Shown here: one piece after another, positions 1,511 through 26,990 of the stretch
Position numbering within the stretch: the first letter of the stretch is position 1
How the letters are laid out: every line of letters starts with the position of its first letter
NCBI GenBank assembly: GCA_951406725.2
Contig: OX597818.1
Location: 113,212,001-113,276,000, forward strand
DNA length: 64,000 nt
Reading direction: 5' to 3'
DNA from: Octopus vulgaris
Taxonomy: Eukaryota
Notes under the pieces: model-generated
The model's input: the letters and a program-made list of their open reading frames with translations, nothing else
Databases searched by the model: none
Told to the model about the DNA's origin: nothing
Program-made: the position numbers and the translations under genes

Positions 1511-1861
1511 ATTATTTACATTATTTACATTTGGCAGATATTCGTTCTCATCTTGTTTGTTGTTAGCACAACATTTTGGCTGATATCCCCTCCAGCCTTC
1601 ATCAGGTGTCTTGGGGAAATTTCGAACCTGGGTTCTCATTCCTAAGGTATTTTAGATGTTATTATTATTGTTAATATTATTAATATTGAAGTCACATCGA
1701 AAAATACCTCAGGAATGAGAACCCACGTTCGAAATTTCCCCAAGACACCTGATGAAGGCTGGTGGGTACATCGGCCGAAACGTTATGTTAACAACAAACA
1801 AGATGAGGACACATATCCGCCAAATGTAAATAATGTACACAATGCTTCATCTCTTAAATAT
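1511..1861. mobile_element. Fold-back insertion of HHR-SINE family A, tRNA heads deleted (arms ~1517-1660 and ~1695-1837)
   Basis: The left arm is the reverse complement of the right (cttggggaaatttcgaacctgggttctcattcct vs aggaatgagaacccacgttcgaaatttccccaag). Same family as 16885-17407. Confidence 0.9.
1744..1789 (+). ncRNA. Minimal type I hammerhead ribozyme, family A
   Basis: gacac-CTGATGA-a-GGCTG..CGGCC-GAAA-CG-TT-atgtt. Core intact; first stem I pair mismatched. The mirror copy at 1565-1610 (-) has GAAA changed to AAAA and is probably inactive. Confidence 0.75.
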
Positions 1862-1966
1862 CCAATTGTATGCTCTTATATGTTTGTATATACTGAATTT
1901 AAAAAAAGAAAAAAATCTGCGCATATGATGCCACTCTATTTGTATCAAGGTGACATCATTACTTTA

Positions 1967-2270
1967 ATAACACCAGCCTGCACGTGAAATTAACGTGCAA
2001 GGCTCCAAAGACACGTGTACCCTTAACGTAGTTCTTGGAGATTCAGCGTGACACAGAGTGTGACAAGGCAGGCCCTTTGAAATACAGGTACAACAGAACA
2101 AGTGGGAGAAAGTTGTAGTAAAAGAGTACAGAAAAGTTCACCTGCCGGAGCTTCGTGGAGCTTTAGGTGTTTTCGCTCAATAAATACTCACTACGCCTAG
2201 CCTGGGAACCGATACGGCGATCCTATGACCGCGAGTCCGCTGCCCTGACCACTGGGCCATTGCACATCCA
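1967..2270 (-). mobile_element. tRNA-derived SINE, family S2
   Basis: Minus-strand head TGGCCCAGTGGTCAGGGCAGCGGACTCGCGG (A box); homologous to 13310-13506 and 59402-59630. Confidence 0.85.
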
Positions 2271-2678
2271 CACACAATTGTATACATTATTAATATATGT
2301 TTTTTTTTCCATACAGTGCAAAATTTTATTTTCGTATTTGTAACAATTATATTTTATTCAATTACGAAGTTGCTTCTACCTTCTTAGTAATTGAATAAGA
2401 AATTATACCGAATAAACAAATGAGCAGTATACTTTGGAGATTAAATAAAATGTAAACAAACATATAATTACGCCGTAATCGCATTAATAAAACATAGTTA
2501 TTTGACACTAATCATTAGACTTTTTGCTTTAATAAGACTGGTTTGCATCCATTACATTGCCAAATATGTTGAAATATTTCCTCGTTTATAAATGATTATA
2601 GGAAGTATATTGTGTGCGTGCGTGCGCACATATGTGTAAGCACACGTATGCTTCAAAGGGGGGACCGTGTGAGAATTC

Positions 2679-3120
2679 CAACTTTCGGCCTGCGACCTTC
2701 GTCAGGTGATGCAATTTTCGGGTTTATTTCTGCTTTACTTAGACTTCGGTTAGTTATTTATCTGGGACATGTACAGTTATGTGAAATTGGGTTTGGAAAT
2801 AGATATTTAGAAAGTGAGATAGACGAAATTCTCATACAAAAGAAAACATAATCTCTCTTCTGGGGTTGCTAAGCAAGATTTTTTTCAATAAATCAGAAAT
2901 AGGGACGTGCAGGAATATATTTATATGAATATATGTACGGGTGTAATACGCACACCAGCTTATAACGTGGACACACACTAGAAAAATATTTAACTTTTGT
3001 TTTGAAGGACGGTTTTTGTTTTTCTTTGCAGCAATTTCTGGTCATCTGTAATATCTCACAGGGAAAAATATTAGACATTTTTCATAACAGCCTATCTTGT
3101 TAGGCTTGAAAGAGGGACCC
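2679..3120 (-). pseudogene. Probable Penelope-like 3' relic with degenerate HHR (family F) at 2679-2708
   Basis: Minus strand cac-CTGACGA-a-GGTC gca GGCC-GAAA. Upstream broken frames (GPSFKPNKIGCYEKCLI...SSVCP) weakly resemble the C-terminus of Penelope ORFs. Confidence 0.45.
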
Positions 3121-3122
3121 TT

Positions 3123-3332
3123 TTATTCTTTTCTACTCTAGGCACAAGGCCCGAAATTTTTGAGGAGGGAGCCACTCGATTAGATCGACCCCAGTACGCA
3201 ATTGGTACTTTATTTATCGACTCCAAAATGATGAAAGGCAAAGTCGACCTCGGCTGAATTTGTACTGAGAACGTAAAGCCAGATGAAATAACGCTAAGCA
3301 TTTCGCCCAGCGTGTTAACATTTCTCTCAGTT
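3123..3332 (-). mobile_element. tRNA-derived SINE, family S1
   Basis: Body atgaaaggcaaagtcgacctcgg...gaaata..gctaagcatttcgccc, repeated about 12 times in the window. Confidence 0.9.
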
Positions 3333-3601
3333 GAAAGCCTTTATGTACCAACACACATTTATATAATATGCATCAACACGGAAACAGATCACCATATGTA
3401 GATTTGAATTGTACACGACGAGACGACGAAAGTATTAACACGGCCGACGCTGAAAGTAACTATATTACATACACACAAACGTACATAGAGAAACATGCGT
3501 ACAACACACACACACATTTACATGTGTATATATTACATGTGTATATCTCTTACATATATATCAAAAAAGTGAAAATAGAAAATGCTAAAATAATTTTAAC
3601 A

Positions 3602-3643
3602 TTTCAGTACCGGTTTCAGTGATTGTGACTTTTTCAACTGAAA
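3602..3643 (-). ncRNA. Minimal hammerhead ribozyme with U3-A8 variant core, family C
   Basis: Minus strand TTTCAG-TTGAAAA-AGTcacaatcACT-GAAA-CCGG-TA-CTGAAA: 6-bp stem I, palindromic stem III, C3-G8 replaced by U3-A8. Confidence 0.75.
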
Positions 3644-24200: not shown

Positions 24201-24713
24201 TAGGTCCCATTCCTGGCAAGTTTCTTGTCGGTGCCTCCATAGTCGAAGCAATAATATCGAAAATGGTCGAAATTACGTTTGTCTCCTCTTGCCGATAACT
24301 AATGAATAATTGGTGACCTGTTTTCTCTACGCCTGTGTATGTAGTATATGTTCGTTTCTTTATTTTTTTTCAATTATATATATGTATATAGGCAGGTCAT
24401 ATTTTCAGTTTGTTGTCTTTTTATCTAATCTTGAAAAGAATATATATATATATATATATATATATATATATATTCTTTTCAAGATTAGATAAAAAGACAA
24501 CAAACTGAAAATATGACCTGCCTATATACATATATATAATTGAAAAAAAAATAAAGAAACGAACATATACTACATACACAGGCGTAGAGAAAACAGGTCA
24601 CCAATTATTCATTAGTTATCGGCAAGAGGAGACAAACGTAATTTCGACCATTTTCGATATTATTGCTTCGACTATGGAGGCACCGACAAGAAACTTGCCA
24701 GGAATGGGACCTA
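24201..24713. repeat. Near-perfect ~240-bp-arm palindrome centred on (TA)n
   Basis: 24201-24440 is the reverse complement of 24473-24713; the only difference noticed is one base in a poly-T tract. Confidence 0.95.
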
Positions 24714-25028
24714 AACATAACTAAACAAAACGGGCTCGAGACGAGACCGTTAATTGACGGACGGGGGACAAAACAATAAACAGAATATGGACTTAGGGTT
24801 AACAAGAAGACGACGATTAATAATGATAATACATATACAACGTGAAGACTTGGGGCTGCAGGAAAAAACAAAAATGGGTAATACGAAACGAGATCCCATG
24901 CAGTTTCGATCTGAATTCACTCAAAAGGGATTGAATACGCAATGGAATTATACCCGCGATTATGTGGATGGGAAATGAACGTCTTAACCACACAGCCATA
25001 CTGTGCCTATATATATATATAAAATAAA

Positions 25029-25268
25029 TGCGCCCTTTTAAAGCCTAGCCAGGCTCATGGACTTGGTTTCTGTGGCGTATGTGCTCTCCAGCTGTACGGG
25101 ACGCCAGTCCATCCCAGCGTTACTCATTTTTGCCAGCTGAGTGGACTGGAGCAACCTGAAATCAAGTGCTTTGCTCAAGAGCACAACGCGTCGCCCGGTC
25201 CAGGAATCGAAACCGCAATCTTACGAGCACGGTGCTGACACACTAACCACTAAGCCACGCGCCTGCAC
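25029..25268 (-). mobile_element. S2-type SINE
   Basis: Head GGCGCGTGGCTTAGTGGTTAG..GGTTTCGATTCC; tail shared with 59402-59510 and 60725-60941. Confidence 0.85.
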
Positions 25269-25634
25269 ACCGTGCCTATATAGTGACGATACTATCAAAC
25301 TAAATATATTTCAACCACATATTCTTACTGCTGTCTGATGTTGTTTCAAAATGAAATCCAATACAGACAGAATCTCATAGAATTGTCTTCGATAAATGAA
25401 GACGGTAACAATTAGAACTGCCAATATTTTTGACCAGTCAGTCACTGAGAGAAACAAAGTTACGATTTAGTGAATCGTGAAAAATATGAAATGCGTTTTC
25501 CCGCAGTTTATGAAGATTAAAGAAAAGAAATATCGTAAGCGGAGAGGATAAAGATTTGAGAGGGAGATTAAACATTTGTTCTTATCTTCCATTCATAGCA
25601 CAATGCATCCACTTGTTCAATCAAGCTCGCTTAC

Positions 25635-25688
25635 GCTATTCACTAGAGACGTGCGTTCTATTTTGCGTCGGAAGAAGTCAGTAGCAGC
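25635..25688 (-). CDS. Candidate 54-nt phase-0 host exon (AATDFFRRKIERTSLVNS)
   Basis: Acceptor ttcttattccgttcaacag, donor GTAAGC, single open frame. No homology recognised. Confidence 0.35.
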
Positions 25689-26314
25689 CTGTTGAACGGA
25701 ATAAGAATTATGTGTGGTGTGAGGGCATATATATGTAAGTGTGTATATGTGTGCATTTATATGTGTGTGTGTATATCCATACATACATACATATATATAT
25801 ATATATATATATATATATATATGCATGTATGTATGTATATGTATGTATGTATATGTATGTATACACAGTGAGATAGATAGACAGGCAGGCAGACAGAGAA
25901 ACAGAGTGGCAGAGTGAGAGGGAGAGAAAGAGAGTGACAGACAGACAAAGATTGATATATAAACAGATAGAAATACACATAAATGTATATGTAGATACAT
26001 AAACATCCACTAGCCTTAGATTATTTTCTATGTCTTACACATAACTACCGATGTATGCATCCCTTTCGTTTCCTTTCTCTCTTTTTATGTATAAACGTAC
26101 ATATGGCCACATACATAGACATGCAGAAAGAGAGAGTGAGAGAGAGGGAAATGCAGAAAATATTGAAGGCAGAGAAAGGGTTATGGTGATGTTGGTGTGC
26201 TTAAATATAGCAGATTTCTATTACACAATAGTGTAATAGATATGTATCTATATCTCTCTCTCTCCACACACACGTACAAATGTAAGTATGTATCTGTGTG
26301 TGTGTGTATGTAGC

Positions 26315-26521
26315 AGGCGTAGCAATGGTTGTGTGGTACGAAGTTTGCTTCCCAACCACATGGTTCAGGCTCACTGCGTGGCACGCTGGGCAAGTGTCTT
26401 TTACTATAGCCTCAGACTGACCAAAGCCTTGTGAGTGGATTTGATAGGCGGAAACTAAAAGAAGACCATTATATGTGTGTGTGTGTGTGTGTGTGTGTGT
26501 GTGTGTGTGTCACCATCACTT
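26315..26521 (+). mobile_element. SINE S3, cut off by a fold-back insertion
   Basis: Head tggttgtgtggtacgaagtttgcttcccaaccacatgg; breaks at caccatcactt, where other S3 copies continue. Confidence 0.85.
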
Positions 26522-26990
26522 GAGAAAATGGAGAAATATATCTAAATCAATCATCAACCATCTGATAATACCCAATCAATACTTTATTAAACCATTACGC
26601 AATAGCAATGATATTATACATTAATATAGTACAAATATAACAAGACATAGAAATAGAAATATGTATTTCTATTTCTATTTCTATGTCTTGTTATATTTGT
26701 ACTATATTAATGTATAATATCATTGCTATTGTGTAATGGTTTAATAAAGTATTGATTGGGTATTATCAGATGGTTGATGATTGATTTAGATATATTTCTC
26801 CATTTTCTCCTTTTGTATTATTAATTTACGGTAAAAATAATTTTACCTTTGCCCACATAATACAGTAGATGAATTAATTGCATCGCAATTTTTAACATTT
26901 ATGTATTAGCTTTGTTGGGTACTTCTCTAGCAGTATATTGGATATATGTTACCCCATGGAGGGTTCAATTTACAACCCCTATCTCATTTT
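26522..26990. mobile_element. Fold-back insertion (arms 26522-26661 and 26664-26809) with ~180-nt extension ending at (TA)n
   Basis: Arms differ by one substitution and one extra atttct unit. Same architecture as 9034-9725, but no HHR was seen. Confidence 0.85.

What the first reader, a model, noticed from the sequence alone, without database searches (positions are those of the whole stretch)
1511..26990. One recurring architecture from unrelated families: short inverted arm plus long arm whose tail ends at a microsatellite
Seen: six head-to-head fold-backs in 27 kb (1511, 4291, 5438, 9034, 16885, 26522) from five unrelated sequences. Five carry HHR motifs pointing outward from the centre. 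Usually one arm has a 3' extension missing from the other, and most abut (TA)n. Known: PLEs generate inverted truncated terminal repeats. Inference: a shared, microsatellite-targeted PLE insertion mechanism is seeding long hairpins. If transcribed within an intron these would form dsRNA (potential ADAR or siRNA substrates, relevant given heavy A-to-I editing in coleoids), and the mirror arm would mask the ribozyme.
Basis: partly seen in the sequence, partly recalled or inferred. Interest (0 to 1): 0.75.

Follow-up and report, generated by a model that had tools for sequence, protein, structure and literature searches.

The report
Penelope retroelement fold-back insertion stubs
These six DNA hairpins are real, but they are the already described head-to-head leftovers of Penelope-type jumping genes and occur here at the genome's average density; their strict one-long-end, one-short-end rule likely records how the element's enzyme copies RNA from both sides of a cut, while any role as double-stranded RNA is untested.

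Summary
All six fold-backs exist and come from five unrelated repeat families; a seventh (24195-24719) was missed and is a different thing. All five families carry type I hammerhead motifs; five window copies show outward motifs (intact in only 3 of 12 arms) and the 26522 copy is truncated past its ribozyme. Genome-wide, young copies pair head-to-head (43 of 101 sites, none tail-to-tail; control repeats 9 of 91, 5 tail-to-tail), almost always one long plus one short fixed end (33 of 34), and 26 of 36 family A fold-backs sit inside a 10-13 bp duplication. An intact 781-aa Neptune-like RT/GIY-YIG element in the genome has the same two ends on (TA)n. This is the published Penelope-like insertion pattern (inverted truncated copy, one-sided tail, microsatellite bias). 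Corrections: family A (two of six) does not target microsatellites; the 4291 copy has no tail; fold-back density (7 per 64 kb) equals background. No host intron, transcription or editing was shown. New details: 100- and 170-nt tails; a weak pile-up of 5' ends just after the ribozyme cut. The scan has noted this pattern in other genomes before.

The parts
1511..1870 (.). FB1, family A fold-back: short left arm 1511-1653 (-), long right arm 1695-~1870 (+); hammerhead core at 1749 (+, stem I decayed), left core decayed (GAAA lost); flanked by an 11-bp near-duplication at 1498-1508 / 1871-1881; no microsatellite at either end
3554..3774 (-). Solo family D copy ending at the short end, with a U3-A8 hammerhead (core at 3637) that passes the descriptor
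4291..4958 (.). FB2, old family C fold-back (arms 81% alike), decayed hammerhead relics at ~4441 (-) and ~4759 (+); both ends at the same family position, both on (TA)n; internal (TA)18 at 4854-4889
5438..5631 (.). FB3, family D fold-back: left arm 5438-5511 cut short at (AG)n, right arm 5507-5631 with ~30-nt tail ending at (TG)n; decayed U3-A8 hammerhead cores at 5507 (-) and 5511 (+)
9030..9728 (.). FB4, young family B (560-bp tandem retrozyme-like unit) fold-back: short left arm 9030-~9300, long right arm 9310-9728 with ~100-nt tail; intact hammerheads at 9393 (+, predicted cut after 9436) and 9267 (-, predicted cut after 9224); (TA)n at both ends
16884..17407 (.). FB5, family A fold-back: long left arm 16884-~17150, short right arm ~17155-17407; includes part of the family's tRNA-like head and (TAA)n; intact hammerhead at 17319 (+, predicted cut after 17354), left one at 17012 (-) with changed stem III; no microsatellite at the ends
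24195..24719 (.).
26521..26990 (.). FB6, young family E fold-back: short left arm 26521-26661, long right arm 26661-26990 with ~172-nt tail ending at (TA)n; both arms truncated just 3' of the family's hammerhead

Best explanation
The six fold-backs are head-to-head pairs of 5'-truncated copies of non-coding, hammerhead-family retroposons, each likely inserted in one event by the reverse transcriptase/GIY-YIG endonuclease of an autonomous Penelope-like element acting in trans. Shown: fixed family-specific long and short 3' ends, one of each per fold-back, flanking duplications in family A, microsatellite ends in B, D, E, and an intact Neptune-like element with the same two-end pattern. Inferred: the endonuclease cuts both strands of an AT-rich or (TA)n target with a 10-13 nt stagger; each free 3' end primes reverse transcription, one at the downstream and one at the upstream start site of the RNA (their distance is the tail); both cDNAs stop early and are joined at the centre, often through a few bases of microhomology. 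The hairpin is a by-product of integration, not a selected RNA structure.
For: Head-to-head partner at 43 of 101 sites of families A, B, D, E, tail-to-tail at 0; control repeats 9 and 5 of 91 (Fisher p 2.6e-7). In searches blind to the end type, 33 of 34 fold-backs are long+short (A 16, B 10, E 7); the one exception (L299) is a nested older copy on inspection; solos are mixed (29 short, 13 long). Tail-selected sets: E 18 and B 7 long+short, none long+long. 10-13 bp duplication around 26 of 36 family A fold-backs against 3.7% for mismatched flanks. Either arm can reach further 5' (long 15, short 12, equal 1 of 28). Family B forms 560-bp tandem arrays with a hammerhead in the unit. Intact 781-aa RT + C-terminal GIY-YIG ORF with a CX4CxxC linker; its pLTR copies end at two positions 40 nt apart on (TA)n, with one inverted long+short pair (L246); family D shares 33 of 43 nt with that end (z 5.2, above 200 shuffles). 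Hammerhead hits are enriched in random fold-backs (7 of 20 in 5.1% of sequence, p 4e-5). Literature: PMC8557442, PMC3846280, PMC4209133, PMC11167929.
Against: The family sets are the best-scoring (young) copies, the controls are copies of any age; in unselected sequence only 1 of 15 (random 600 kb) and 3 of 26 (all loci not fetched with that family) sites of A-E were head-to-head, with 1 tail-to-tail. Of the 7 hammerhead hits inside random fold-backs, 3 point inward, and 3-4 of the 20 hits are expected by chance. Only 9 of 65 random fold-backs could be tied to an outward hammerhead. No autonomous partner was found for A, B, C or E. FB2 has no tail. The family A long-arm set held 1 long+long and 1 short+other among 18 fold-backs. 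Rfam did not report a hammerhead family in the top 150 of 245 window hits nor on 16900-17450, so hammerhead calls rest on my descriptor; isolated motifs fold no better than shuffles. PAc showed no strand difference in start-site use in vitro (PMC11167929), which does not explain the strict long+short pairing.
Confidence: 0.85

Rival explanations
1. Same elements, but the mirror arm is made by self-priming (snap-back) of one cDNA or antisense template, and the endonuclease trims the intermediate at the tail site.
For: Proposed in PMC3846280 (passages) and hinted at in PMC8557442 (tail from EN-mediated resolution); it would give one long and one short end automatically; young arms are 97-100% alike.
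Against: Either arm carries the unpaired 5' spacer about equally often (15 against 12 of 28), which a fixed first-arm snap-back does not predict; short ends also occur as solos (29 of 42 solos), so the short end is a start site in its own right.
Confidence: 0.25
2. The hairpins are kept because they are transcribed and act as dsRNA (ADAR substrates, small-RNA sources, ribozyme switches).
For: FB4 folds into a ~260-bp duplex that buries both hammerheads (-455.6 kcal/mol, z -35.9); editing of inverted repeats is general in metazoans (PMC9989829 passages).
Against: Density equals background; arms and ribozymes decay with age; no host exon found; no endo-siRNA in molluscs (PMC12479628 passages).
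Confidence: 0.07
3. Chance pairs of independent insertions of abundant repeats, or MITE-like DNA elements with terminal inverted repeats.
For: Abundant control repeats do form chance inverted pairs (S1 6 head-to-head and 3 tail-to-tail of 36).
Against: No tail-to-tail pair among 101 sites, one duplication spans both arms, arm lengths vary freely at the centre, ends are asymmetric.
Confidence: 0.03
4. Assembly artefacts (fold-back reads).
For: PMC8557442 notes assembly problems at such structures; FB7's arms are identical.
Against: The six have arms 81-99% alike with indels, family-fixed ends and flanking duplications.
Confidence: 0.02

Closest known systems
EN+ Penelope-like element insertions with inverted 5'-truncated copy and one-sided tail (PMC8557442 Fig. 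2; Adineta Pen2a in PMC3846280; PAc in PMC11167929)
   Same: Head-to-head inverted truncated copy, tail at one end only, duplication around the whole unit, AT-rich or (TA)n targets, type I hammerhead in the repeat, two fixed 3' ends.
   Different: No ORF in the window copies; tails of ~100 nt (B) and ~172 nt (E) against the 30-40 nt described; family A avoids microsatellites; pairing quantified here as 33 of 34 long+short.
Dual minimal hammerheads on opposite strands 100-700 bp apart, and the U3-A8 core variant, from truncated PLEs (PMC4209133, section 5)
   Same: Same spacing and orientation class; U3-A8 variant in family D; extra nucleotide at the 5' side of stem II and palindromic stem III in family A.
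   Different: Described in Schistosoma and others, not for this genome in the searches made.
Metazoan non-LTR retrozymes (PMC7229834; bioRxiv 10.64898/2026.07.22.740005)
   Same: Family B (560-bp tandem unit, one type I hammerhead per unit, non-coding) and probably C fit; proposed to be non-autonomous PLE derivatives.
   Different: Unit longer than the ~300 nt typical; circular RNA not tested; here shown to insert with the PLE two-end, inverted signature.
Neptune/Nematis-type PLEs
   Same: The autonomous 781-aa ORF has RT, a CX2-5CxxC linker, C-terminal GIY-YIG and (TA)n ends.
   Different: Clade not placed on a tree; linked by sequence only to family D.

Membership tests
EN+ PLE-type insertion | Inverted 5'-truncated copy head-to-head at the 5' end | tested here: met
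   43 of 101 sites head-to-head, 0 tail-to-tail
EN+ PLE-type insertion | Tail at one end only (two fixed 3' ends) | tested here: met
   33 of 34 long+short; 5 of 6 window copies, FB2 not; tails 25-172 nt, two families beyond the described 30-40
EN+ PLE-type insertion | Type I hammerhead in the terminal repeat | tested here: met
   Descriptor passes on references of A, B, C, D; family E shows core, stem II and palindromic stem III by inspection but did not pass the descriptor; Rfam gave no hammerhead hit
EN+ PLE-type insertion | Target duplication around the whole unit, or microsatellite target | tested here: met
   Duplication in 26 of 36 family A fold-backs; microsatellite ends in B, D, E; FB5 itself shows no clear duplication
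Autonomous PLE | ORF with RT and GIY-YIG | tested here: not met
   No such ORF in the window fold-backs; present elsewhere in the genome
Non-autonomous partner of the Neptune-like element | Shared end sequence with an autonomous element | tested here: inconclusive
   Family D 33 of 43 nt, z 5.2; A, B, C, E none above shuffles on the sense strand against one autonomous family
Non-LTR retrozyme (family B) | Tandem non-coding units each with a type I hammerhead | tested here: met
   560-bp arrays of up to 7 units within a locus
Non-LTR retrozyme (family B) | Self-cleavage and circular RNA in vivo | not testable with these tools
   No raw RNA reads available
MITE / DNA transposon | Symmetric fixed terminal inverted repeats | tested here: not met
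   Ends asymmetric, arm lengths variable, many solos
ADAR or Dicer substrate | Transcription through both arms with editing or 21-23 nt reads | not testable with these tools
   Only DNA contigs could be laid

The most novel reading that the evidence does not exclude
The fold-backs are a fossil record of an asymmetric Penelope integration complex: a dimer primes both cut DNA ends, obligately one at each of two RNA start sites, these sites can lie up to 170 nt apart, and in the young families B and E the template is often the hammerhead-cleaved RNA, since 5' ends pile up just after the cut site. That would give genomic evidence that the ribozyme acts in vivo and a constraint that the in vitro PAc work did not see.
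Probability: 0.3. Interest if true: 0.55.

Novelty: new member of a known kind. Interest (0 to 1): 0.3.

Why it matters
As architecture it is known. Its use is as data on an open question, how PLEs form tandem/inverted structures and tails (stated as unresolved in PMC8557442): the strict long+short rule across unrelated families, very different tail lengths and both microsatellite and non-microsatellite targets in one genome constrain models and name RNA substrates for an in vitro test. It also shows that such elements supply part of this genome's roughly one short-spacer inverted repeat per 10 kb, a possible but unshown source of editable dsRNA.

Tried and rejected
Rfam scans gave only microRNA-like noise on microsatellites and one tRNA; no hammerhead. 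First descriptors missed family A (stem II offset) and the U3-A8 core; fixed. First end-typing of family E failed because the reference held a microsatellite; redone. No RNA holder listed for 19800-25700: not evidence either way. Laying contigs could not cover FB6, so none of the six was checked with reads; only FB7 was. Pfam on 80 of 261 window ORFs and 65 of 432 flank ORFs found one GIY-YIG fragment and no host gene; small exons would be missed. Local hotspot: rejected, density equals background. Shared microsatellite targeting by all families: rejected for A. 5' ends at the ribozyme cut: seen in E and B shared-part sets (4 of 22 and 4 of 32 within 5 nt, 0.7 and 0.8 expected), not in D (0 of 20) or A (1 of 16); weaker in tail-selected sets (3 of 19 and 2 of 17 within 5 nt, not significant; 7 of 19 and 5 of 17 in a -7..+16 window chosen after the first look; some loci shared between sets): kept as a hint only. 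(AT)n-centred perfect palindromes like FB7 as a common class: 2 short non-simple cases among 907 AT runs, none of FB7's length. No earlier notes on this genome.
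Full report
Observation. Self-BLAST found the six fold-backs at the stated places and a seventh at 24195-24719. Arm identities are 127/144, 237/294, 61/66, 256/259, 195/220 and 139/140 for FB1-FB6 and 239/239 for FB7. Each arm belongs to a dispersed family: A (FB1, FB5), C (FB2), D (FB3), B (FB4), E (FB6), F (FB7), with no pairwise similarity above shuffle maxima. The same fold-back search gave 65 in 60 random 10-kb stretches and 7 in the 64-kb window, so the window is average; the crowding into 27 kb is borderline (P 0.03 for 7, 0.08 for 6).

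Hammerheads. A type I descriptor of my own (core patterns recalled; C3-G8 or U3-A8; short palindromic stem III allowed) passes on references of A, B, C and D; family E has the core, a long stem II and a palindromic stem III upstream of FB6's truncation points but did not pass. In the window, 3 of 12 arms pass (9393+, 9267-, 17319+); FB1, FB2, FB3 and FB5-left carry decayed outward motifs; FB6 has none. Rfam reported no hammerhead family among the 150 of 245 hits listed, nor on 16900-17450. In the random 600 kb the descriptor hit 20 times (3-4 after shuffling), 7 inside fold-backs that cover 5.1% of the sequence (p 4e-5), 4 outward and 3 inward; 9 of 65 fold-backs had a homologue with an outward motif, most others had too few homologues to judge or were pairs of abundant repeats.

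Family anatomy. B is a 560-bp unit in tandem arrays with two fixed 3' ends about 100 nt apart; E has ends 172 nt apart, D about 30, A about 25-30. With window copies and 9 overlapping loci dropped, 43 of 101 sites of A, B, D, E have a head-to-head partner within 1100 bp and none a tail-to-tail one; four control repeats give 9 and 5 of 91 (p 2.6e-7). Caveat: the family sets are the best-scoring copies; in unselected sequence the figures were 1 of 15 and 3 of 26 head-to-head with 1 tail-to-tail. Searching with the part shared by both arm types, 33 of 34 fold-backs join a long to a short end, while solos are 29 short and 13 long; the exception L299 is an insertion beside an older copy. Tail-selected sets add 18 (E) and 7 (B) long+short, 3 unclassified, none long+long; the family A long-arm set had 16 long+short, 1 long+long, 1 short+other. 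Two B loci typed long+long run off the locus edge. Microsatellites follow 29 of 32 B ends and 1 of 40 A ends, 28 of 30 E and 22 of 29 D ends, against 5.9% of random positions. Family A fold-backs are instead bracketed by 10-13 bp duplications (26 of 36 at score 8 or more, 3.7% for mismatched flanks), FB1 included, which makes each fold-back one insertion. Either arm may extend further 5' (15, 12 and 1 equal of 28). FB2 is old and symmetric, and family C's ends are variable.

The enzyme. A GIY-YIG search listed 150 matches from 6136 candidates, many in 781-aa frames. One such ORF has RT and C-terminal GIY-YIG by Pfam with a CX4CxxC linker, the Neptune/Nematis mark named in PMC8557442. Its pLTR copies end at 456 or 496 on (TA)n, and L246 pairs one of each in inverted order. 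Family D matches that end at 33 of 43 nt (z 5.2); A, B, C and E show no such link, so their mobilisers are unknown.

Mechanism. Shown: geometry, fixed ends, duplications, targets, an intact enzyme gene. Inferred: double-strand staggered cut, priming from both ends at two RNA start sites, early stop, central joining. PMC11167929 (parts 1-2 of 4 read) shows that PAc cuts and extends both strands and starts at two sites whose distance is the tail, without strand preference; the 33 of 34 rule implies a coordination not seen there. Snap-back (PMC3846280, passages) remains the main rival. Following a lead from earlier scan notes, 5' ends pile up near the ribozyme cut in E and B but not D or A, and more weakly in tail-selected sets; a hint only.

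Function as RNA. FB4 would fold into a long duplex that hides both ribozymes. But no host exon was found (145 of 693 ORFs scanned), no RNA reads could be laid, and PMC12479628 (passages) finds no endo-siRNA in molluscs. Editing of inverted repeats is general (PMC9989829, passages), so some editing would be unsurprising and not specific to these elements.

Comparison. PMC8557442 (passages) describes the inverted 5'-truncated copy, the one-sided 30-40 bp tail and the (TA)n bias; PMC4209133 (passages and section 5) describes opposite-strand hammerhead pairs 100-700 bp apart and the U3-A8 core; PMC7229834 (passages), PMC6765202 (passages) and bioRxiv 10.64898/2026.07.22.740005 (part 1 of 5) cover retrozymes and dimeric PLE hammerheads. 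Searches listed no paper on these families or on a twin-priming count for PLEs; I saw listings only for most, read no supplements, and repeat libraries (Repbase, Dfam) were not available, so the families may already be catalogued. The scan has reported the same pattern in at least eight other findings.

Verdict. Real, mechanistically coherent, already described in kind. New members with unusually long tails and a quantified end-pairing rule; the dsRNA idea is untested. Interest 0.3.

Noticed in passing
window 24195-24719: Seventh palindrome: 239/239-identical arms of an old repeat family (76-84% between copies) around (AT)17. In laid contigs the arm unitig has about twice the flank depth in runs X2 and X7 but about equal depth in X1 and X5: probably a real recent inverted duplication, possibly polymorphic.
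   Followed up: partly
window 17080-17260; loci L126-L155: Family A has a tRNA-like head (recognised by eye from recalled A/B boxes; ARAGORN did not call it) joined by (TAA)n to the hammerhead end: a SINE-like element with a PLE-type insertion signature.
   Followed up: partly
L241-L251, L246: Young intact Neptune-like PLE family, 781-aa ORF in 11 of 16 fetched stretches, pLTR 456-500 bp, with a U3-A8-type hammerhead-like motif by inspection (did not pass the descriptor).
   Followed up: partly
window 3130-3335 and 7050-7250 (repeat S1): This abundant control repeat shows some head-to-head excess (6 against 1 of 125 sites; 6 against 3 of 36) with (TAA)n flanks; it may itself be PLE-mobilised.
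   Followed up: no
families E and Neptune-like ends: Both fixed ends of family E finish in the same short motif (TCTCATTT) 172 nt apart, and the autonomous pLTR short end has a similar one; a candidate start-site signal.
   Followed up: no
L157, L158, L163, L172, L181, L189, L202: Further hammerhead-bearing fold-back families, several with the U3-A8 core, in the random sample.
   Followed up: no
L159:4775-5684: Tail-to-tail pair of family D copies with (TTC)n/(GAA)n on the outside, the only such case seen.
   Followed up: no
window 27468-27542: tRNA-Val(CAC)-like sequence, probably a SINE head.
   Followed up: no
window 23556-23701: 144 bp absent in contigs of runs X5 and X7, present in X1 and X2.
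   Followed up: no
L354:4654-4986: GIY-YIG fragment about 25 kb downstream of the window.
   Followed up: no
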